Of a DNA stretch of 64,000 bases, positions 26,775 through 36,792 are shown piece after piece (the stretch's first letter is position 1; every line of letters starts with the position of its first letter). The notes below the pieces were generated by a model. That model was not told the DNA's origin, did no database searches, and saw nothing but the letters and a program-made list of their open reading frames with translations. Made by a program: the position numbers and the translations under genes. The stretch comes from a phage, in the sequence record NC_104726.1. One strand, given 5' to 3'.

Positions 26775-27753
26775 CCTTATATTCAAAGGTGGTCGCAACA
26801 CCACCCTCCGCACCATTACGTGCCGCTGCATGTTACCATGCAGAGTAGACTATATCACCACCCATCTCAGGGTGCTTCGCTTTTCGAGCGCCATAGGCTT
26901 GCGCCCTACTCCCTCTCGGGATAGTCGTTGAACTACATTACCAATCGTAATTGTTTGAAATATAGGTGTAAGTCTTACGGTCTTTTATTCCTTTAACAAC
27001 ACTAAAACTTACGCCCCACTTCTTAGCTATTTTATTTACACACAAAACCCTATCACTAAGATCCTCGCAGATACCTATTATCTTGTGCTCACTTATCCTA
27101 TTAGAGGTTGGCACTTTTCTAAAGTTAAACTCTTTAGAAATATCTGGGTATACTGAGCCATTCTTTATACCACTTACAAGTGGTTGATTGACACCAAACA
27201 TTTCACAAATGTCTTTTACCCTTGCACCTTGCTCTAACAGTCTACATATTTCAAGAGCAGTGGCATCATCTAGGGACCTGTATTTATTGACATAGTCCTT
27301 TTTAAGTCCCATTTCATGAGCATGATGTGTGTTTTCCTCAGGTGTTGTCCACTCAAGGTTCCATGCGGCGTTATTCAACTTATTGCCATCAAGGTGATTT
27401 ACTTGAGTTTTCACGCTGGGATTATCATTATCAACAAAAGTCATAGCAATCACTCTGTGAACGAGCACTTGGAACTTTTTACCGTCCTCGCACAAAGTTA
27501 CCATAGCATAGCCAGTCTTTTTCTGCACATTAGGATGGAGGAATTTATTAGAATACAGACTGTAAATTCTGCCATCGTATGTAGCACAATAATGATTGTA
27601 GCCTAAAAAGCCTAAATTTTTCATTTCAAACATCTCCCTACTACAGGTTCGGAAGGGTAATTATAGCTGCTGATTGTCCGTTTAGCAATCGGATTTTCCA
27701 GCAATTAACGAAGTTATTCGACGTGCATTTCTGCACGAAGCCACTATCATTTA
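26775..27753 (-). mobile_element. group I intron 2 in terL, carrying HNH homing endonuclease ORF
   Basis: interrupts terL between ...SFSFIGATI and FDNPVCL...; coding strand carries R-like GTTCAACGACTA (26933-26922) and S-like GATATAGTC; exon ends in U, intron ends in G; boundaries +/- ~15 nt. Confidence 0.6.
26938..27633 (-). CDS. intron-encoded HNH homing endonuclease
   Basis: 231 aa; HNH motif HRVIAMTFVDNDNPSVKTQVNHLDGNKLNNAAWNLEW; lies wholly inside terL intron 2. Confidence 0.75.
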   Translation of the reverse strand: MFEMKNLGFLGYNHYCATYDGRIYSLYSNKFLHPNVQKKTGYAMVTLCEDGKKFQVLVHRVIAMTFVDNDNPSVKTQVNHLDGNKLNNAAWNLEWTTPEENTHHAHEMGLKKDYVNKYRSLDDATALEICRLLEQGARVKDICEMFGVNQPLVSGIKNGSVYPDISKEFNFRKVPTSNRISEHKIIGICEDLSDRVLCVNKIAKKWGVSFSVVKGIKDRKTYTYISNNYDW

Positions 27754-28073: not shown

Positions 28074-28390
28074 CTATGTTCGGGCAAGGTCGCTAGTCTT
28101 GCCCCGCCATTTTTCAGGCAGCTGCATGTCTCCATGCAGACCAGACTATATCTTATAAGCGACAACAACCGCTTACCCTCCCGTTTCGAATCGCTTGATT
28201 CTACGTCTTTCGACTAGTCGTTGAACGTTCATCCTCTCGGATGCTTCGCTGCGGATTATCTAAATTAACACACTGTTACCATACCTTCGATCTCTCTTCG
28301 AAGCCTCTATCATGTTACCATGACAGGTTGGTGGTGTCAATAATAAAGATTTCCCCGCAATTAGGGAGGTTTTACGAGAGCTACAAATTA
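28074..28390 (-). mobile_element. group I intron 1 in terL (no ORF)
   Basis: separates Walker-B exon (…MVCFDEG) from exon 2; coding strand has GTTCAACGACTAG (28225-28213) and AAGATATAGTCTGG (28154-28141); begins after U, ends with G; shares CTGCATG-N5-CATGCAG hairpin with intron 2. Confidence 0.6.
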
Positions 28391-28816
28391 ACCCTCATCG
28401 AAGCAAACCATGGTGTACTCAAGCCCTTGATGGTTAAGCTTATCTTGTACATACTCCATGTGGCAGTATTTTACAACAGCTCCCTTTTTGCTTCTATCCC
28501 ACTTACCAGTGTTAGGATCAAACCGTGGAAAAATGAACTTATGATCCTTCTCTCTGAACTTTGGCTTAATGTTTTCAGGCAGATCACTATAAATAGCTAC
28601 TGCTTTAGGCCATAGTCCACCCTCACCCTCCAACTGTGGAGTTGTTCTTCGGAACATAACCACAGAGCTGTGGGGGTCATCAATAATTTTAAGCGGCATC
28701 AACTGCAAAAGGAACGACTTGCCAGACCCTGCGGCACCGCCGATTACCAAAATATCTGCATCGTTTTCGAGGATCATCTTCTGCTTTTCAGAACACGGTC
28801 CGTAAATCTTAGACAT
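28391..28816 (-). CDS. terL: terminase large subunit, exon 1 (ATPase N-terminus)
   Basis: Walker A GGAAGSGKS and Walker B MVCFDE; ORF track 28388..28816 ends at an in-frame stop that is the first codon of the intron. Confidence 0.75.
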
Positions 28817-29919: not shown

Positions 29920-29996
29920 TGGTCTCCACGGAGTGATTCGAACACTCGACCTCCTGATCCCAAATCAGGCGCTCTACCAAGCTGAGCTACGCGGAG
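29920..29996 (-). tRNA. tRNA-Pro (anticodon UGG)
   Basis: manual fold: acceptor CTCCGCG/CGTGGAG, D arm GCTC..GAGC, anticodon loop TTTGGGA, T loop TTCGAAT, encoded CCA. Confidence 0.75.
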
Positions 29997-30007
29997 TATT
30001 TACTATT

Positions 30008-30082
30008 TGGTGGCCCTGGGTGGAATTGAACCACCGTCTGGCGATTATGAGTCGCTTGCTTGAACCTTCCAGCTACAGGGCC
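30008..30082 (-). tRNA. tRNA-Met (anticodon CAU; Met/Ile2 type undetermined)
   Basis: manual fold: acceptor GGCCCTG/CAGGGCC, anticodon loop CTCATAA, T arm GGTGG-TTCAATT-CCACC, encoded CCA. Confidence 0.7.
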
Positions 30083-30083
30083 T

Positions 30084-30159
30084 TGGTGCTGATGGCAGGA
30101 CTTTAACCTACAACCTATTGATTACAAATCAATTGCACTACCGATTTTGCTACATCAGC
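30084..30159 (-). tRNA. tRNA-Thr (anticodon UGU)
   Basis: manual fold: acceptor GCTGATG/CATCAGC, anticodon arm ATTGA-TTTGTAA-TCAAT, encoded CCA. Confidence 0.7.
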
Positions 30160-30164
30160 AAAAA

Positions 30165-30263
30165 GGTGCTAGGTGATGGAATCGAACCACCTATGTATTC
30201 AACGACTACCTCGTCTATTTTCAGGATTAAAAATCCTCGCCCTTGCCAAAGGGCTTACCTAGC
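30165..30263 (-). tRNA. atypical tRNA-Lys (anticodon UUU) with ~29-nt extra hairpin in variable region
   Basis: acceptor GCTAGGT/ACCTAGC, D arm GCCC-TTTGGCAA-GGGC, anticodon arm AGGA-TTTTTAA-TCCT, T arm GGTGG-TTCGATT-CCATC; 99 nt, extra segment AAAATAGACGAGGTAGTCGTTGAATACAT between anticodon and T arms. Confidence 0.5.
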
Positions 30264-30361
30264 TCAGTATGTTGACCATGTTGCTAGTCGGCGATGACGA
30301 CTGTAACATTTGATAATCCGGTTCTGCTTCCGACTTTCGCTTAATTACAAGGTCAACAATG

Positions 30362-30452
30362 TGGCGGAGAGTAATGGAATCGAACCATCATCGAGTCATC
30401 CTCAACGGGACGGTTTTCAAGACCGCTTGAGCACCATTGCTCCCTACCCTCC
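30362..30452 (-). tRNA. tRNA-Ser (anticodon UGA), type II
   Basis: acceptor GGAGGGT/ACTCTCC, anticodon arm GCGGT-CTTGAAA-ACCGT, long variable arm, encoded CCA. Confidence 0.7.
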
Positions 30453-30566
30453 TTTATAAATAATACTGATAATGACACTGATTTTCGAGCAGTTAGTGAC
30501 TAGTATAAACGACGATAAATATCAATGCCATTATCTGTATTATTTATGCATCTAAAAATATAAATT

Positions 30567-30653
30567 TGGTGGGGAGTGGTGGAGTCGAACCACCCGAGTC
30601 GCAATGACAATAGATTTACAGTCTACACCGCTACCTCTACGGGATAACTCCCC
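30567..30653 (-). tRNA. tRNA-Tyr (anticodon GUA), type II
   Basis: acceptor GGGGAGT/ACTCCCC, anticodon arm GTAGA-CTGTAAA-TCTAT, long variable arm, T arm GGTGG-TTCGACT-CCACC, encoded CCA. Confidence 0.65.
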
Positions 30654-30657
30654 AATT

Positions 30658-30732
30658 TGGCACCCCGTACTGGACTCGAACCAGTGTCAACGGCTTAGAA
30701 GGCCGCTGCTTTATCCACTAAGCTAACAGGGC
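30658..30732 (-). tRNA. tRNA-Arg (anticodon UCU)
   Basis: acceptor GCCCTGT/ACGGGGT (two G-U pairs), D arm GCTT..AAGC, anticodon arm GCGGC-CTTCTAA-GCCGT, encoded CCA. Confidence 0.65.
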
Positions 30733-30790: not shown

Positions 30791-30819
30791 ATATTACACT
30801 GTTAAGCAAAGTTTGTCAA
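30791..30819 (-). promoter_or_regulatory. sigma70-like promoter upstream of tRNA cluster
   Basis: minus strand TTGACA-17 nt-TAATAT, ~60 nt upstream of tRNA-Arg 5' end. Confidence 0.5.
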
Positions 30820-33666: not shown

Positions 33667-34221
33667 TTACTCCCTGCTGTCAATATCAAAACTCATTGCA
33701 ATACGGTATGCCTCTTCTAATTGTAAGAGTCTCCCCCACACATCCCAACCGACATCAAGCTGCCTGCCAAACAACTGTTGTGTGGTTCCGTGAGCATGAC
33801 CGAACAGTTGGACTGATCCGTGAGGCTTTCTGTTCCACTTTGCAAACTGGTAATGGCTCATACAGATCAAATTCTTGTTGTGGCGAAGCTCGTAATAATC
33901 TACAACCTCATGACCGAACTCTTTCATAATTCTGACAGTCGTCCTTGTGTCATGGTTGCCACGAACAAGAATAATATGTCCGTTCAACATATTTAGAATA
34001 TCTGGAAGTAAGTTGTTGATATTCTTATCATTAGTGCACGCAATATCTCCCAAGTGGAACACAGTGTCTGCAGGTGACACAACAGAGTTCCACTCGGCGA
34101 TGATTCCCGCATTCATACTGTCAAGATTGTGATCATACTGAGATCTGTGTTTTTGACATGAATCAAACTCCATGACCCGCTGGTGGAGAAAGTGTGTGTC
34201 GCTTGTTACAAAGTATTTCAT
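33667..34221 (-). CDS. calcineurin-like metallophosphoesterase (Pnkp-type phosphatase candidate)
   Basis: ORF 33667..34326 trimmed to MKYFVTSDTHF; motifs DxH (SDTHF), GDIA, GNHD, GHAHG. Confidence 0.6.
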   Translation of the reverse strand: MKYFVTSDTHFLHQRVMEFDSCQKHRSQYDHNLDSMNAGIIAEWNSVVSPADTVFHLGDIACTNDKNINNLLPDILNMLNGHIILVRGNHDTRTTVRIMKEFGHEVVDYYELRHNKNLICMSHYQFAKWNRKPHGSVQLFGHAHGTTQQLFGRQLDVGWDVWGRLLQLEEAYRIAMSFDIDSRE

Positions 34222-34228
34222 ACATTCC

Positions 34229-34639
34229 TCATTTAAGTTTAATGCAGTTTTTAAGCTGGCGTTCCATACGATCCACAACCTTGTCTGGAACATCATGAAT
34301 GCTTTTATTACCGTGGCGGTTTTCAACCACGATCACGGTATAACTATACCCATGAGTGATTGCCATGTCAACATATTCCTGCACATGTTTTTCTTTTGTA
34401 AACGTATTACTTACCACGATACGGTCGTATCCCATACGCATCATATCTTCTACGTTATCTTTGCACCATTTTGCTGCGAGTGTTACTTTACTTGCATCCC
34501 AGTTGTAATTGCCGTCATCGTCATACCAGAACATGTCGTTCTCAAAATGTGGATACAGACCCTCTAAAGATAGCGCATTTGCCAGTGTTGATTTGCCAGA
34601 CCCTGGTAGACCACGCACGATATATAGCATTTTAGACAT
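34229..34639 (-). CDS. P-loop polynucleotide-kinase-like protein
   Basis: trimmed to MSKMLYIVRGLPGSGKST (GGAGGG RBS); Walker A close to T4 Pnk GCPGSGKST; small single-domain kinase. Confidence 0.55.
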   Translation of the reverse strand: MSKMLYIVRGLPGSGKSTLANALSLEGLYPHFENDMFWYDDDGNYNWDASKVTLAAKWCKDNVEDMMRMGYDRIVVSNTFTKEKHVQEYVDMAITHGYSYTVIVVENRHGNKSIHDVPDKVVDRMERQLKNCIKLK

Positions 34640-34667
34640 AGCGACCCTCCGTTTTAATTTCAACGGT

Positions 34668-34696
34668 AGTATACCTAACTGTTTTGTTAATTTCAA
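34668..34696 (-). promoter_or_regulatory. sigma70-like promoter for kinase/phosphoesterase genes
   Basis: minus strand TTGAAA-17 nt-TATACT; back-to-back with plus-strand TTGACA at 34700. Confidence 0.45.
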
Positions 34697-34739: not shown

Positions 34740-35675
34740 ATGACAAATGAGGAACATATAATGAAGTATTTTAATGCAGACGACCTAGTTGACAAAGGTC
34801 TTGCAACCAGTAGGTATTACCCAGATCTCGGGTTAAAGATCTATAAATATGCTAGAAAAGTATTTTACAACAATTTATGGCATTTGTCCCCTCGTTTACT
34901 GGAGTGCCGAGGCATTGTTGTAGGTAATGAAGGAAATGTTGTGGCATGGCCCTTCACAAAAGTGTTTAACTTGGGAGAAAACTCCACCAACCTGCCTGAC
35001 AATAAGCTTGTGACTGCGGTAGAGAAAAAGAACGGATTCCTTGGTGTGGTATCATCTCATAAAGGTGACCTATTGTTCTCAACAACCGGGTCTCTTGATT
35101 CTCCATATTGTAACCTTGCAAAGGAAACCATCCAAGAGCAATGTGGTAATTTAGATCTTATCAAGAAGGTTATGGGCAATGAAAACATGACATTCATGTT
35201 TGAAATTTGTCACCCTTCAGATCCGCATATTGTTCAAGAAGACCATGGCGCATATTTGATAGGTTGCAGATATAATGATTCTGGAATAATGCTACCAGAA
35301 GCAGCTTTAGATGGGATTGCCAAATACCTTGGTGCAAAACGTCCTAACACTGTGCGTGAAATTCCGTTCAGCTATGCAAAAGAATTAGCTGCAGAAACAA
35401 GAGGTGAAGGGTATATGATTCGTAAGCCTTACTACCCTTATGATCTGCAGCTGAAGATCAAGTCTCCATACTATCTGGCACGGAAGGCAGTAATGAGGGG
35501 TAAAGCTTGGAAGATTTGGGATGATGATATCTTTAAACGTGTTGACGAAGAGTTTTACGGTATGGTAAAATTTATTCGTAGCAACTATACAGAAGATGTG
35601 TGGAATTGCTTATTAGAGCAGGAGCGTCGTGAGATACTGGACTACTATTTCCACAACGAGGACTATATGCAATGA
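34740..35675 (+). CDS. rnlA: RNA ligase 1 (T4 RnlA-like)
   Basis: 311 aa; LLECRGIVV and VFNLGEN match T4 Rnl1 ALECRGIMF / FFNLNEN; nucleotidyltransferase motif I KKNG; motif V LKIKS. Confidence 0.7.
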   Translation: MTNEEHIMKYFNADDLVDKGLATSRYYPDLGLKIYKYARKVFYNNLWHLSPRLLECRGIVVGNEGNVVAWPFTKVFNLGENSTNLPDNKLVTAVEKKNGFLGVVSSHKGDLLFSTTGSLDSPYCNLAKETIQEQCGNLDLIKKVMGNENMTFMFEICHPSDPHIVQEDHGAYLIGCRYNDSGIMLPEAALDGIAKYLGAKRPNTVREIPFSYAKELAAETRGEGYMIRKPYYPYDLQLKIKSPYYLARKAVMRGKAWKIWDDDIFKRVDEEFYGMVKFIRSNYTEDVWNCLLEQERREILDYYFHNEDYMQ

Positions 35676-36022
35676 AGAAGTGGATTGTGTGGCTTGATGA
35701 TTTTAGAGATCCGTCAGATTATGGACTCCCAGACGCTCTGTGGCTAAAGAATTCTTCTGAGTTTATGGATTTTCTTAATGATAAGAGAAAGCTCTACAGA
35801 CGCGTATCTGAGTGGTATTTTGACAATGATCTAGGTGAAGTGCTTGAAGGGTACGACTGCTTCTCTGCGCTAGAGGAGAAACTTGTATTCGGAAAGCCAC
35901 CACTTATTGACAACGTGATTATTTTCGTGCATACTTCTAATCCATCGGCAGCTCGTAAATTTATGCTTGCTGCTGACTCATTCAAGAAGTTTGGAATAGA
36001 GATTAAACAAAACATCTACTGA
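35672..36022 (+). CDS. hypothetical protein, receiver-like alpha/beta fold suspected
   Basis: 116 aa; N-terminal MKKWIVWLDDFRDP resembles beta1-DD of CheY-like receiver; translationally coupled (ATGA) to RNA ligase. Confidence 0.3.
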   Translation: MKKWIVWLDDFRDPSDYGLPDALWLKNSSEFMDFLNDKRKLYRRVSEWYFDNDLGEVLEGYDCFSALEEKLVFGKPPLIDNVIIFVHTSNPSAARKFMLAADSFKKFGIEIKQNIY

Positions 36023-36030
36023 GGACACTT

Positions 36031-36792
36031 ATGCGACGACTGATTATTATCTCCGGTGCTGGTTTGAGCGCTGAATCTGGTATTCCCACTTTCCGATCTG
36101 GTAGCACTGCAATGTGGGAGAATTTCAGCATCGATGAGGTGTGCAACATCCACACCTTTGCCAAGAATTACTATAAGGTGCATGACTTTTACAATGCACG
36201 TCGTGTAGCTCTGGGCAGTGTTGATCCTAACCTTGCACATCTTCGGATCGCTGAGTGGTATTCCCGCTGGTCTGGTCGTGTGATCAACCTTACCACCAAT
36301 GTAGATGATTTGCTGGAGCGTGCTGGTGTAAAACATGAAGATATTTTACATGTCCACGGGTATTTGCCTGAAATCACCTACGAAGATGCTGAAGGTAATG
36401 ATGTAATTAAAAATATCGGATACACGGAGGTAGATACAGGCAAGTATACCTGGGTTAAGCCCAATGTAGTGTTATTCGGTGAGGTTGCTCCTAAGTATAC
36501 AGACATGTATGACCTGTTGACATCTCTCACAAGCAATGATATGGTGATCCTAGTAGGTTGTTCTAACACAGTTATTAATTTTAACTGGGAATTGTTTCCT
36601 GCTACTTGTAAAGGCACAAAACTGCTGATTGTAAACAAGTATGACTCGCAGAGTGCAGATGGAAGTGGCATTTCACGTAGCGACCTTTATCAATATGAGG
36701 ATCGCGGGATCCCTGTATGGTTTAACGGTGCTGTTGACGCTTTCTCTGATAAAGCATTTATTGAAACTGTAGAAAACTTTATGGAACTTTAA
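36031..36792 (+). CDS. Sir2-family NAD-dependent enzyme (sirtuin-like, no zinc ribbon)
   Basis: 253 aa; GAGLSAESGIPTFRSG, TTNVDDLLERAG, catalytic HVHG, VLFGE; lacks CxxC...CxxC zinc-binding module. Confidence 0.7.
   Translation: MRRLIIISGAGLSAESGIPTFRSGSTAMWENFSIDEVCNIHTFAKNYYKVHDFYNARRVALGSVDPNLAHLRIAEWYSRWSGRVINLTTNVDDLLERAGVKHEDILHVHGYLPEITYEDAEGNDVIKNIGYTEVDTGKYTWVKPNVVLFGEVAPKYTDMYDLLTSLTSNDMVILVGCSNTVINFNWELFPATCKGTKLLIVNKYDSQSADGSGISRSDLYQYEDRGIPVWFNGAVDAFSDKAFIETVENFMEL

What the first reader, a model, noticed from the sequence alone, without database searches (positions are those of the whole stretch)
29920..30732. Seven-tRNA cluster dominated by U34 anticodons, several matching known anticodon-nuclease targets
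Manual folding gives tRNA-Pro(UGG), Met(CAU), Thr(UGU), Lys(UUU), Ser(UGA), Tyr(GUA), Arg(UCU), all on the minus strand behind a TTGACA-17-TAATAT promoter (30791-30819). Five of seven have U at the wobble position. Lys(UUU), Tyr and Arg isoacceptors are classic targets of bacterial anticodon nucleases (PrrC/PARIS-type, colicin E5/D-type). The cluster lies 3-4 kb from an RNA-repair cassette, consistent with a tRNA replacement/repair counter-defence role, beyond codon-usage compensation.
Basis: partly seen in the sequence, partly recalled or inferred. Interest (0 to 1): 0.5.

Follow-up and report, generated by a model that had tools for sequence, protein, structure and literature searches.

The report
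Phage tRNA operon with odd Lys-like RNA
This is the already-annotated tRNA operon of an rV5-like E. coli phage, mostly explained by codon supply, but its supposed lysine tRNA is a 99-nt member of an apparently undescribed tRNA-shaped RNA family whose anticodon loop differs between phage lineages.

Summary
Seven tRNA-type genes lie at 29920-30732 (minus strand) behind a TTGACA-17-TAATAT promoter. A metallophosphoesterase, a kinase, an Rnl1-type RNA ligase and a cREC domain lie 3-4 kb away. The window is an rV5-like Vequintavirus, and six of the genes were published in 2013. Two identities need correcting. The CAU tRNA is almost certainly Ile2 (lysidine, reads AUA), not Met. The "Lys(UUU)" gene is not an ordinary tRNA-Lys. 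It is a 99-nt L-shaped RNA with A8, a 6-bp D stem, a 4-bp anticodon stem and a 30-nt variable region. It belongs to a phage-only family found in five Vequintavirinae genera and one N4-like podovirus. The family's fold is proven by covariation, including a G19:C56 to U19:A56 tertiary swap. Its anticodon loop varies by lineage: UCC or GCC, UCA, UAU, and UUU here. Only Vequintavirus combines UUU, U33, A37 and A73. Codon usage explains Arg, Ile2 and Thr strongly (AGG, AGA, AUA, ACA are the four most over-used codons), Tyr moderately, Ser and Pro weakly, and Lys not at all. Rare natural deletions remove the Tyr-Ser-Lys-like block. A counter-defence role is plausible for that block only and is untested.

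The parts
30791..30819 (-). Sigma-70 promoter of the tRNA operon (TTGACA, 17 nt, TAATAT)
   Evidence: Consensus scan gives 10 of 12 matches. The same site is annotated P(tRNA) in rV5 record DQ832317. Transcription from it is inferred, not shown.
30658..30732 (-). tRNA-Arg(UCU), reads AGA and AGG
   Evidence: ARAGORN. Rfam tRNA 67.8 bits. AGA and AGG are 7.9x and 10.5x over-used in late genes versus E. coli.
30567..30653 (-). tRNA-Tyr(GUA), class II, 87 nt
   Evidence: ARAGORN. Rfam tRNA 29.9 bits, just above the gathering score. 70% identical to E. coli tyrU with an identical loop; pair 28-42 is U-A here and C-G in the host and in a second Vequintavirus allele.
30453..30566 (-). Tyr-Ser spacer holding a long AU-rich hairpin (about 30456-30547)
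   Evidence: MFE -30.3 kcal/mol, z -5.5, 0 of 200 shuffles fold as well. Only wobble-compatible single changes among close relatives. The spacer diverges 12-13% in distant Vequintaviruses. Function unknown.
30362..30452 (-). tRNA-Ser(UGA), class II, 91 nt, G73, CCA encoded
   Evidence: ARAGORN only. Rfam tRNA-Sec model 41.5 bits, below its gathering score. 73% identical to T4 tRNA-Ser.
30264..30361 (-). Ser to Lys-like spacer; weak cloverleaf-like fold closed by an 8-9 bp helix
   Evidence: z -1.55, not significant. Diverges like a spacer.
30165..30263 (-). 99-nt non-canonical tRNA-like RNA with a Lys-type anticodon loop (UUU at 30231-30229). A8; 6-bp D stem with UGGC loop; 4-bp anticodon stem flanked by a G.G mismatch; 30-nt variable region (30221-30192) with a hairpin at 30215-30201; A73; CC but no encoded A76.
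   Evidence: calls and fold. Family alignment and covariation. Covariance model R1 gives 104.3 bits, against at most 29 bits for ordinary tRNAs. Divergence within the genus is 3-4%, like the tRNAs, against 12-13% for the spacers.
30084..30159 (-). tRNA-Thr(UGU), reads ACA (and ACU/ACG by wobble)
   Evidence: ARAGORN. Rfam 70.6 bits. Differs from E. coli thrU by C28U/G42A and C32U, and retains UAAUC|A. This window's allele has private C13A and C56A changes.
30008..30082 (-). tRNA-Ile2(CAU, lysidine expected), reads AUA. It is not Met.
   Evidence: 76% identical to E. coli ileX. GCGACUCAUAAUCGC is identical to ileX, and C4-G69 and C5-G68 are present. The TilS requirement comes from PMC1635315. 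The BASEL depositors also annotate it as Ile. AUA is 4.3x over-used in late genes.
29920..29996 (-). tRNA-Pro(UGG)
   Evidence: ARAGORN. Rfam 66.4 bits. 82% identical to T4 tRNA-Pro.
33667..34326 (-). Calcineurin-like metallophosphoesterase (candidate 2',3'-cyclic or 3'-phosphate end-healing enzyme)
   Evidence: Pfam Metallophos_2 / Metallophos, E 2e-6. rV5 ORF80 is annotated 'putative phosphoesterase'. The true start codon is probably downstream of the longest ORF.
34229..34696 (-). P-loop kinase, polynucleotide-kinase-like
   Evidence: Pfam AAA_33, E 1.6e-10. Annotated polynucleotide kinase in Bas48.
34740..35675 (+). T4 Rnl1-type RNA ligase
   Evidence: Pfam RNA_lig_T4_1, E 1e-14. rV5 ORF82 is annotated as RnlA-like.
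35672..36022 (+). cREC_REC (cyclic-phosphate processing receiver) domain protein
   Evidence: Pfam PF20274, E 9e-14.

Best explanation
The segment is the tRNA operon of an rV5-like Vequintavirus. One host-type promoter probably drives a single precursor, which host RNase P and 3' trimming enzymes would cut into six ordinary tRNAs and one unusual tRNA-shaped RNA. The ordinary tRNAs are Arg UCU, Tyr GUA, Ser UGA, Thr UGU, Ile2 CAU and Pro UGG. The ordinary tRNAs work mainly as in T4. They add decoders for codons that this 43% GC phage uses far more than E. coli does, and that the host reads with scarce tRNAs (argU, ileX, thrU). This step is supported by codon statistics. The seventh gene is different. 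It is the Vequintavirus version of a phage-specific family of L-shaped RNAs with a conserved body and a lineage-specific anticodon loop. In this genus, which has no canonical tRNA-Lys gene, the RNA has acquired UUU, U33, A37 and an A73 discriminator, which is the recognition set of lysyl-tRNA synthetase. Inferred: it is charged with lysine and supplies Lys decoding from a body that differs from host tRNA-Lys. The differences are a 4-bp anticodon stem, C41, no U8 and a large extra arm, so nucleases that cut host tRNA-Lys (PARIS AriB, PrrC-type, OLD-type) should recognise it poorly. The nearby phosphoesterase, kinase and Rnl1 genes would repair tRNAs that do get cut. The operon would thus be a codon-supply core (Arg, Ile2, Thr, Pro) plus a usually retained but dispensable block (Tyr, Ser, Lys-like) whose benefit may be defence-related.
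For: Genes and promoter. Phage identity and prior annotation; PMC3606486. Codon supply: AGG, AGA, AUA and ACA are ranks 1-4 of 59 in late genes versus E. coli, and the cognate codons as a set give Mann-Whitney p=0.003. Ile2 identity: and PMC1635315. The Lys-like RNA is a folded, selected molecule. 22 of 22 helix pairs are 100% paired across 22 distinct sequences, 10 pairs change on both sides, and slid controls give 35-50%. The tertiary pair is G:C in 14 and U:A in 8. Family scores are 100-118 bits against at most 29 bits for ordinary tRNAs, with one copy per genome. An independent hit in a Schitoviridae phage scores 107.9 bits. Divergence within the genus matches the tRNAs and is a quarter of the spacers'. 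Lys marks are confined to Vequintavirus: UUU with A73, against U73 in all but one other sequence (one Avunavirus-like contig has C73). Relatives carry canonical tRNA-Lys(UUU) as well as the odd RNA. Lys is not explained by codon demand, and E. coli has many tRNA-Lys genes. Resistance-type features: C41 equals T5's Mut2 (PMC12409363), and a shortened anticodon stem is a resistance factor for OLD (PMC12445682). Repair genes. About 113 of 118 Vequintavirus records keep the Tyr-Ser-Lys-like block, and V18 and typing phage 4 lack it.
Against: No expression, processing, aminoacylation or infection data exist for any Vequintavirus tRNA in the literature searched. CCA and UCA themselves are not over-used (ranks 25 and 19); Pro and Ser fit only through wobble reading of CCU and UCU. 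The Lys-like RNA keeps U39, and AriB resistance in T5 depends most on U39A. Its loop is nearly identical to the host's, so PrrC might still cut it. A8, the 4-bp anticodon stem and the missing A76 could impair ribosomal function. In most family members the loop is 6 or 8 nt, or lacks U33, so the ancestral job of the family is probably not ordinary decoding. The long extra arm could attract seryl-tRNA synthetase instead. The phage tRNA-Thr retains the AriB core site, and C28U/G42A alone did not protect thrU from OLD (PMC12445682). The tRNA-cutting retron Eco2 still defends against Vequintavirinae (PMC12916289).
Confidence: 0.55

Rival explanations
1. One reading: the whole seven-gene cluster exists mainly as a counter-defence kit. 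It would replace host tRNAs destroyed by anticodon nucleases and work together with the RNA-repair cassette, with codon supply secondary.
For: Lys UUU, Thr UGU and Tyr GUA match the three specificities recovered in phage-tRNA suppressor screens against AriB, P2-OLD and PtuAB (PMC12445682). Phage tRNA-Lys rescues from PrrC170 and PARIS (PMC11555353, PMC12409363). Thr and Tyr differ from host thrU and tyrU at pair 28-42, the CNG-motif position. Repair genes lie 3-4 kb away.
Against: Arg, Ile2 and Thr read the four most over-used codons relative to E. coli. The set overlaps T4's in five specificities, and T4-like similarity is direct (Pro 82%, Ser 73%). No known phage-defence nuclease is needed to explain Arg UCU, Ile2, Pro or Ser. 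Colicins are not phage defences. The phage Thr keeps UAAUC|A. The genes that survive natural deletions are the codon-supply ones.
Confidence: 0.2
2. The Lys-like RNA does not decode at all. It would be a tRNA mimic, for example a decoy that soaks up a tRNA-binding nuclease or enzyme, a carrier of an amino acid for a non-ribosomal reaction, or a partner of a phage protein that reads the invariant linkers. The loop would be retuned in each lineage to imitate a different tRNA.
For: Across the family the body is conserved but the loop varies in sequence and length (5-7 nt folded; 6 or 8 nt in Seuna/Mydo). Position 33 is A or C in most members. Relatives carry canonical tRNA-Gly(UCC) and tRNA-Lys(UUU) alongside the odd RNA, so it is redundant there as a decoder. 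ARAGORN calls none of the non-Vequintavirus copies it scanned, and none of the seven scanned with Rfam reaches the tRNA gathering score. The linkers (GAAAA, AAUACAUAGG) are invariant and unpaired in the model, which suggests a protein contact. The authors of PMC12409363 raise the possibility that over-expressed viral tRNAs inhibit AriB.
Against: In Vequintavirus the loop can be a canonical 7-mer with U33 and A37. The discriminator changed to A73 together with the anticodon, which matters for charging rather than for a nuclease decoy. A CCA or CC end and a standard 7/5 acceptor/T geometry are kept. No antisense target for the linker occurs in the window. No partner protein was identified.
Confidence: 0.3
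3. The 99-nt gene is a decaying or insertion-disrupted tRNA-Lys pseudogene with no function.
For: Low Rfam score (35.5 bits), a 26-nt insertion, A8 instead of U8, incomplete CCA, and inconsistent annotation.
Against: 100% pairing with 10 doubly changed pairs and a covarying tertiary pair. Conserved in five Vequintavirinae genera and a Schitoviridae phage. Evolves as slowly as the real tRNAs while the spacers evolve four times faster. Kept in about 96% of Vequintavirus genomes.
Confidence: 0.03
4. It is a suppressor tRNA, as some depositors annotate (tRNA-TERM tta here, sup(tca) in Erwinia phages), used for stop-codon read-through.
For: GenBank annotations. The Henunavirus, Ithacavirus and several metagenomic copies do carry UCA in a 7-nt loop followed by AA.
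Against: In this window a UUA reading requires a stem register with U.C and A.C mismatches. The only register with Watson-Crick pairs puts UUU at positions 34-36 (sequence). The UCA copies have A33 rather than U33. No sign of stop-codon recoding was seen: ORFs in the window are normal under table 11.
Confidence: 0.03

Closest known systems
Phage T4 tRNA cluster (eight tRNAs plus stable species 1 and 2 RNAs, rnaC and rnaD)
   Same: A compact operon of tRNAs in a lytic E. coli myovirus. Five specificities are shared (Arg UCU, Ile CAU, Thr UGU, Ser UGA, Pro UGG), all reading A-ending codons that are rare in the host. There is direct sequence similarity (Pro 82%, Ser 73%, Arg 71%, Thr 70%). Both clusters include non-tRNA stable RNA genes of unknown function, and both phages encode an Rnl1-type ligase and a polynucleotide kinase.
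   Different: T4 has no Tyr or Lys-type gene. rnaC and rnaD are not homologous to the odd RNA: model R1 hits only T4 Thr and Leu, at 22-24 bits. The repair enzymes here are split into a separate kinase and a metallophosphoesterase instead of the fused T4 Pnkp, and a cREC domain protein is added.
Phage T5 tRNA-Lys(UUU), which neutralises PARIS (AriB), and other nuclease-resistant phage tRNAs (Tyr versus PtuAB, Thr versus P2-OLD)
   Same: Same anticodon as the host target. C41 equals T5's protective A41C change. The shortened anticodon stem resembles the OLD-resistance feature. Thr and Tyr differ from the host at pair 28-42 (PMC12409363, PMC12445682).
   Different: T5 tRNA-Lys is an ordinary 76-nt class I tRNA, whereas this RNA has a different architecture. 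U39, whose mutation abolished cleavage in T5, is unchanged here. There is no experimental rescue data for any Vequintavirus tRNA.
Class II tRNAs and bacterial tRNA-Sec (selC)
   Same: A long extra arm, a 6-bp D stem closing a 4-nt D loop, and no 8-14 tertiary pair. Some family members carry UCA followed by AA, as in tRNA-Sec.
   Different: The acceptor/T geometry is 7/5, not 8/5. The discriminator is A or U, not G. The anticodon here is UUU. The extra arm is flanked by long invariant single-stranded linkers (6 and 9 nt). No SelB or SECIS context is known.
allo-tRNAs (Sec-like tRNAs with varied anticodons; recalled from Mukai et al. 2017, not checked here)
   Same: tRNA-like molecules with long extra arms whose anticodon varies between relatives while the body is kept.
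   Different: As I recall, allo-tRNAs are defined by 8/4 or 9/3 acceptor/T structures and occur in bacteria. This family is 7/5 and was found only in phages: 0 matches in 185,579 bacterial and archaeal genomes.

Membership tests
Canonical bacterial tRNA (Rfam RF00005), applied to the 99-nt gene | Score at or above the family's gathering threshold | tested here: met
   35.5 bits against a threshold of 29, but only with a 26-nt insertion and a deleted position 27. The homologues in seven loci from other genera do not reach the threshold.
Canonical bacterial tRNA, applied to the 99-nt gene | U8 with the 8-14 tertiary pair, and a 3-4 bp D stem with a 7-11 nt loop | tested here: not met
   A8 is invariant in all 22 aligned sequences. 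The D stem is 6 bp with a 4-nt loop, and all six pairs are 100% paired.
Canonical bacterial tRNA, applied to the 99-nt gene | D-loop G19 pairing with T-loop C56 (L-shape) | tested here: met
   G:C in 14 sequences and U:A in 8, never mismatched.
Canonical bacterial tRNA, applied to the 99-nt gene | 5-bp anticodon stem and a 7-nt loop with U33 and a purine at 37 | tested here: inconclusive
   In this window the loop UUUUUAA fits (U33, A37), but the stem has only 4 pairs plus a G.G mismatch, and U32-A38 could close it to 5 nt. In most other lineages the loop is 6 or 8 nt, or position 33 is A or C.
tRNA-Lys(UUU) (E. coli type) | LysRS identity set: U34, U35, U36 and A73 (established knowledge) | tested here: met
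   UUU and A73 are present in every Vequintavirus copy. Every other genus has a different triplet and, with one C73 exception, U73. Actual charging is not testable here.
tRNA-Lys(UUU) (E. coli type) | Class I body (about 76 nt, 5-nt variable loop) homologous to tRNA-Lys | tested here: not met
   99 nt with a 30-nt variable region. Only the loop and the T loop align with lysT. E. coli tRNA-Lys genes score about 15 bits with the family model, against 104 for this gene.
tRNA-Ile2 (CAU, lysidine), applied to the gene at 30008-30082 | C4-G69 and C5-G68 required by E. coli TilS; not the fMet pattern (A11-U24, G12-C23) | tested here: met
   G1 G2 C3 C4 C5 pairs with G68 G69 G70 C71 C72, and the D stem has C11 and U12. 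The rule comes from PMC1635315. The anticodon stem-loop is identical to ileX. Elongator tRNA-Met has U4-A69 and A5-U68.
Bacterial tRNA-Sec (Rfam RF01852) | 8/5 acceptor/T helices, UCA anticodon, G73 | tested here: not met
   7/5 geometry in all members. UUU here. Discriminator A, or U in other genera. The 6-bp D stem with a 4-nt loop and the long extra arm are shared.
Nuclease-evading phage tRNA (T5 tRNA-Lys type) | Same anticodon as the host target, with substitutions at the nuclease's recognition or cleavage site | tested here: inconclusive
   C41 is present (A41C 'substantially inhibits' AriB), but U39 is unchanged (U39A abolishes cleavage) (PMC12409363). The anticodon stem is shortened, which is an OLD-resistance factor (PMC12445682).
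Nuclease-evading phage tRNA (T5 tRNA-Lys type) | Rescue of infection or cell growth in the presence of the nuclease | not testable with these tools
   No paper found reports Vequintavirus tRNAs in such assays. The supplement of the 245-tRNA library is not held.
T4-type tRNA repair pathway (Pnkp plus Rnl1) | 5'-kinase, 3'-end-healing phosphoesterase and Rnl1-family ligase encoded together | tested here: met
   AAA_33 kinase, Metallophos phosphoesterase and RNA_lig_T4_1 lie within 2 kb, plus cREC_REC. The phosphoesterase belongs to a different family from the T4 Pnkp phosphatase domain. Activity was not tested.
Codon-compensating phage tRNA set (T4 model) | Cognate codons over-represented in phage (especially late) genes relative to the host | tested here: met
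   Met for Arg, Ile2 and Thr (ranks 1-4 of 59) and for Tyr (rank 10). Weak for Ser and Pro. Not met for the Lys-like gene (rank 35). Set-level Mann-Whitney p=0.003.

The most novel reading that the evidence does not exclude
The 'Lys' gene represents an undescribed class of phage RNA. It would be an L-shaped, CCA-ended tRNA mimic with a fixed body and invariant linkers, plus an exchangeable anticodon loop and discriminator that each phage lineage retunes (Gly-like UCC/GCC with U73, UCA with U73, UAU, Lys-like UUU with A73). It would impersonate whichever host tRNA matters in that lineage, as a nuclease decoy or inhibitor, or as a dedicated aminoacyl carrier, rather than as a routine decoder. 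The family has spread horizontally between unrelated phage families.
Probability: 0.3. Interest if true: 0.8.

Novelty: new variant of a known kind. Interest (0 to 1): 0.55.

Why it matters
Why phages carry tRNA genes has been argued for fifty years, with codon supply and defence evasion as the main candidates. This operon separates the two ideas within about 800 bp. A core (Arg, Ile2, Thr) tracks the most over-used codons. A block (Tyr, Ser, Lys-like) does not, and it is missing in a few natural isolates. Close relatives are in the public BASEL collection (Bas48 onward), and the relevant defence systems are cloned, so the question can be tested directly. Separately, the Lys-like gene reveals a conserved tRNA-shaped RNA family that gene finders miss or mislabel as Lys, OTHER, TERM or nothing. 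Its anticodon loop and discriminator change between lineages while the fold is kept. That is either a rare case of a tRNA scaffold switching identity or a new kind of tRNA mimic. It also corrects two annotations propagated through more than a hundred phage genomes: Met should be Ile2, and six or seven tRNAs should be six tRNAs plus one tRNA-like RNA.

Tried and rejected
1. The UUA (tRNA-TERM) reading of the 99-nt gene was rejected. The only register with Watson-Crick stem pairs gives UUU.
2. tRNA-Sec membership was rejected: 7/5 helices, no UCA here, no G73.
3. The pseudogene idea was rejected by covariation and by divergence rates.
4. Homology to T4 rnaC and rnaD was rejected: about 60% identity or less, and no hit with the family model.
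5. The pattern CCTTTGGCAAGGNCGAGG in viral contigs gave 21 chance hits in GC-rich coding DNA out of 26. The 3' motif worked better.
6. A bacterial origin was tested with the family motif and found nothing in 185,579 genomes.
7. An antisense role for the invariant linker has no support: no complementary site occurs in the window.
8. The long hairpin in the Tyr-Ser spacer shows only wobble-compatible changes and no compensatory pairs, and the spacer is poorly conserved in distant Vequintaviruses, so I make no functional claim.
9. The fold of spacer B is not significant.
10. I looked for Vequintavirus tRNAs in the PARIS, OLD, Schlafen, retron and BASEL papers and found none. The supplement listing the 245-tRNA library is not held.
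11. My first E. coli codon reference used only 17 ordinary genes. I repeated the analysis with ribosomal-protein genes added and with late and early phage genes separated. The ranking of AGA, AGG, AUA and ACA was stable, but the earlier result that all top eight codons were readable dropped to five of eight.
Full report
**What is at the coordinates**

ARAGORN finds seven tRNA-type genes on the minus strand at 29920-30732 and none elsewhere in the 64-kb window. Rfam's tRNA model passes its gathering score for six of them. tRNA-Ser is found only by ARAGORN and, below threshold, by the tRNA-Sec model. A TTGACA-17-TAATAT promoter lies at 30819-30791.

In transcription order the genes are:
- Arg(UCU) at 30658-30732
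- Tyr(GUA) at 30567-30653
- a 114-nt spacer
- Ser(UGA) at 30362-30452
- a 98-nt spacer
- an anomalous 99-nt gene at 30165-30263
- Thr(UGU) at 30084-30159
- a CAU tRNA at 30008-30082
- Pro(UGG) at 29920-29996

The window is 99.6% identical across this region to rV5-like E. coli myoviruses of the genus Vequintavirus, such as phages inoa, isim and Bas48 CarlMeissner. The cluster and its promoter are annotated in the rV5 record. The 2013 rV5 paper reported six tRNAs, explained them by codon usage, and called the Met tRNA "seemingly unwarranted" (PMC3606486).

They are a metallophosphoesterase, a P-loop kinase, a T4 Rnl1-type ligase and a cyclic-phosphate-processing cREC domain, at 33.7-36.0 kb.

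**First correction: the CAU gene is Ile2, not Met**

- It is closest to E. coli ileX (76% identity).
- Its anticodon stem-loop GCGACUCAUAAUCGC is identical to that of ileX.
- It has C4-G69 and C5-G68. Elongator tRNA-Met has U4-A69 and A5-U68.
- These two pairs are required by E. coli TilS (PMC1635315).
- The BASEL depositors also annotate it as Ile reading AUA.

With lysidine at position 34 it reads AUA, so six of the seven genes read A-ending codons.

**Second correction: the "Lys(UUU)" gene is not an ordinary tRNA-Lys**

ARAGORN labels it "tRNA-???". Rfam aligns it at 35.5 bits only by inserting 26 nt in the variable region and deleting position 27. Depositors call it Lys, OTHER or TERM(tta), or omit it.

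Read directly from the sequence, it has:
- a 7-bp acceptor stem
- A8 and A9
- a 6-bp D stem closing a UGGC tetraloop
- an anticodon arm GAGGA-UUUUUAA-UCCUG, which is four pairs flanked by a G.G mismatch
- a 30-nt variable region, made of AAAAUAG, a 4-5 bp hairpin and UGAAUACAUA
- a normal T arm
- A73 followed by CC

The loop differs from that of E. coli tRNA-Lys only at C32U. The UUA reading requires mismatched stems, so I reject it.

**The gene belongs to a family**

BLAST with divergent forms, motif scans and a covariance model recovered homologues in several places:
- five genera of Vequintavirinae: Vequinta-, Avuna-, Seuna-, Henuna- and Mydovirus
- metagenomic contigs of similar size
- the tRNA cluster of an N4-like podovirus, Salmonella phage UTK0002 (Schitoviridae, Ithacavirus), which was not used to build the model and scores 107.9 bits (E about 5e-26)

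The family motif has no match in 185,579 bacterial and archaeal genomes.

On 22 distinct sequences, all 22 tested helix pairs are 100% paired, and 10 pairs change on both sides. Sliding the 3' partners by 1-3 columns drops pairing to 35-50%. The D-loop/T-loop tertiary pair switches cleanly between G:C (14 sequences) and U:A (8 sequences).

The family model scores members at 100-118 bits, with one copy per genome. Every ordinary tRNA scores at most 29 bits, and E. coli tRNA-Lys scores about 15.

Within Vequintavirus the gene diverges 3-4% in the most distant isolates. That equals the bona fide tRNAs, while the two spacers diverge 12-13%. The gene is therefore a folded, L-shaped RNA under purifying selection, not a pseudogene.

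**What varies is the anticodon loop**

In a common alignment frame, U34 is nearly invariant and A37 is invariant. The triplet differs by lineage:
- UCC in most Seuna- and Mydoviruses
- GCC in phage 4MG
- UCA in Henunavirus, Ithacavirus and three metagenomic lineages
- UAU in Avunavirus
- UUU in Vequintavirus

Position 33 is A or C in most members, and the Seuna/Mydo loops are 6 nt (or 8 nt if the closing C-G pair opens).

The discriminator is U73 in every lineage except Vequintavirus, apart from one Avunavirus-like contig with C73. Vequintavirus has A73, the discriminator of tRNA-Lys. NCC with U73, G1-C72 and C2-G71 resembles glycine identity (established knowledge of GlyRS).

Relatives with 20 or more tRNA genes carry canonical tRNA-Lys(UUU), tRNA-Lys(CUU) and tRNA-Gly(UCC) in addition to the odd RNA. 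Among those non-Vequintavirus copies, ARAGORN called none of the ones it scanned. None of the seven scanned with Rfam reaches the tRNA gathering score. Vequintavirus has only seven genes and no canonical tRNA-Lys, and it is the one genus where the RNA wears a full Lys costume.

**Codon-usage test**

I compared 30 late ORFs and 37 early or middle ORFs of the window with 44 annotated E. coli K-12 genes.

| Codon | Late genes vs E. coli | Rank of 59 | Read by |
|---|---|---|---|
| AGG | 10.5x | 1 | Arg(UCU) |
| AGA | 7.9x | 2 | Arg(UCU) |
| AUA | 4.3x | 3 | Ile2(CAU) |
| ACA | 3.3x | 4 | Thr(UGU) |
| UAC | 1.8x | 10 | Tyr(GUA) |
| UCA | 1.4x | 19 | Ser(UGA) |
| CCA | 1.1x | 25 | Pro(UGG) |
| AAA | 0.92x | 35 | Lys-like |

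Ser and Pro fit only through wobble reading of UCU and CCU. As a set, the cognate codons are enriched (Mann-Whitney p=0.003).

Codon supply is therefore the best-supported role for Arg, Ile2 and Thr. It is partial for Tyr, Ser and Pro, and absent for the Lys-like gene. E. coli's only tRNA-Lys is encoded by many gene copies.

The set overlaps T4's in five specificities and shows direct sequence similarity, for example Pro at 82%.

**Counter-defence evidence**

Published work shows the following:
- PARIS AriB cuts E. coli tRNA-Lys(UUU) and tRNA-Thr(UGU) at U36-A-A-U-C|A41. T5 tRNA-Lys escapes through U39A and A41C (PMC12409363).
- Screens of 245 coliphage tRNAs recovered only Tyr(GUA) against PtuAB, Lys(UUU) against AriB and Thr(UGU) against P2-OLD. 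Resistance to OLD came from an altered CNG motif plus a shortened anticodon stem (PMC12445682).
- Phage tRNA-Lys rescues from PrrC170 (PMC11555353).

In this window the signatures are mixed:
- The Lys-like RNA has C41 and a shortened stem, but it keeps U39.
- Thr has C28U/G42A, but it keeps a 5-bp stem and the AriB core site.
- Tyr has U28-A42 where the host, and another Vequintavirus allele, have C28-G42.

Natural deletion variants (V18 and typing phage 4) lack Tyr, Ser and the Lys-like gene but keep Arg, Thr and Ile2, with or without Pro. In V18 the deletion fused the 5' half of Tyr to the 3' half of the odd RNA. About 113 of 118 Vequintavirus records keep the block.

I found no experiment on any Vequintavirus tRNA. 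The tRNA-cutting retron Eco2 still defends against Vequintavirinae (PMC12916289).

**Most likely mechanism**

Shown:
- an operon of six canonical tRNAs and one structured tRNA-like RNA behind a sigma-70-type promoter
- a match between Arg, Ile2 and Thr and the phage's most over-used codons
- the fold, conservation and phage-restricted distribution of the odd RNA
- Lys-type loop and discriminator marks that are specific to this genus

Inferred:
- The RNA is processed, completed by the CCA-adding enzyme and lysylated.
- It serves as a structurally atypical source of Lys decoding that tRNA-Lys-directed nucleases recognise poorly.
- The neighbouring phosphoesterase, kinase and Rnl1 genes repair cut tRNAs, as T4 Pnkp and Rnl1 do.

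The main rival for this one gene is that it does not decode at all. It could instead act as a mimic: a decoy, an inhibitor, or an aminoacyl carrier or protein partner. That would fit the non-canonical loops and the redundancy seen in the other genera.

**Comparison with known systems and novelty**

The operon as a whole is a known object: annotated, published and T4-like. The counter-defence idea is an established hypothesis, not a new one.

Two things are not in Rfam 15 or in any paper I could find:
- the tRNA-like family itself, which combines 7/5 helices, a Sec-like D arm, invariant linkers around an extra arm and a lineage-variable anticodon loop and discriminator
- the observation that the operon splits into a codon-supply core and a dispensable Tyr-Ser-Lys-like block

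I rate this a new variant of a known kind (tRNA-like RNAs and phage tRNAs) with moderate interest. The search for prior descriptions was limited to the held library and to Rfam.

**Limits**

- The E. coli codon reference is 8,510 codons from one 50-kb region.
- Late and early classes were assigned by strand and position using the rV5 annotation.
- Family members were collected by BLAST and one conserved motif, so divergent relatives may be missing.
- Covariation counts sequences, not independent events.
- Aminoacylation, modification, expression and nuclease sensitivity cannot be assessed computationally here.

Noticed in passing
window 28122-28400 (-), with ORF 26938-27633 (-): A group I intron (Rfam RF00028, 84 bits, E 6e-20) lies inside the terminase large-subunit gene. 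rV5 annotates that gene as three joined pieces, with an HNH homing endonuclease in a second intervening segment that Rfam does not recognise as an intron.
   Followed up: no
window 35672-36022 (+) and 36031-36792 (+): A cREC_REC (cyclic-phosphate processing receiver) domain protein overlaps the stop codon of the Rnl1-type ligase gene and is followed by a SIR2-family protein. The RNA-repair module is therefore larger than, and different from, the T4 Pnkp/Rnl1 pair.
   Followed up: partly
window 30456-30547 (-), in the Tyr-Ser spacer: A long AU-rich imperfect hairpin of about 40 pairs (z -5.5; 0 of 200 shuffles fold as well). Among close relatives only U-A to U.G type changes occur. The spacer is 12-13% diverged in distant Vequintaviruses, and some depositors mark it 'repeat_region'. 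It could be an RNase III-type processing site, but nothing shows it.
   Followed up: partly
window 30264-30361 (-), in the Ser to Lys-like spacer: The 98-nt spacer folds into three hairpins closed by an 8-9 bp helix (GUUGACC...GGUCAAC), which is cloverleaf-like. The fold is not significant (z -1.55), and the sequence evolves like a spacer.
   Followed up: partly
L006 852-943 (Escherichia phage V18, NC_041937): A natural deletion fused the 5' half of tRNA-Tyr (through its anticodon arm) to the 3' half of the Lys-like RNA, removing Ser and both spacers. The chimera scores 33.5 bits with the family model. O157 typing phage 4 (L007) has a similar loss.
   Followed up: yes
window 30084-30159 (-): This window's tRNA-Thr carries two changes (C13A in the D stem and C56A in the T loop) that are absent from all six other Vequintavirus Thr alleles examined. 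C56A would break the G19-C56 tertiary pair.
   Followed up: partly
L079 2488-2595 (Salmonella phage vB_SenP_UTK0002, OQ359892): A full member of the odd RNA family (UCA loop, 107.9 bits) sits unannotated in the tRNA cluster of an N4-like podovirus (Schitoviridae, Ithacavirus). It is 88.6% identical to the Erwinia phage Hena1 copy, which points to horizontal transfer of a tRNA-cluster module between phage families.
   Followed up: partly
L004 1199-1283 (Escherichia phage Av-05): A second unusual tRNA-like sequence with a 7-bp acceptor-like helix, a CUUCUAA (Arg UCU-type) loop and a normal T arm, but no ordinary D arm. ARAGORN does not call it, and the family model gives 15.9 bits.
   Followed up: no
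GenBank records MG0656xx ('Campylobacter phage' C15, C2, A12a, A141 and others): Eighteen records labelled as Campylobacter phages are 99-100% identical to E. coli rV5-like phages across the tRNA operon. This looks like a host mislabel or a contaminating coliphage.
   Followed up: no
L065 7862-7934 and L011 5994-6079: ARAGORN calls a CUA-anticodon gene ('tRNA-Pyl', an amber-suppressor type) at the end of a 152-kb metagenomic Vequintavirinae-like contig. It also calls a four-base-anticodon 'tRNA-???(ggca)' in PVP-SE1. These are further non-standard tRNA-type genes in this phage group.
   Followed up: no
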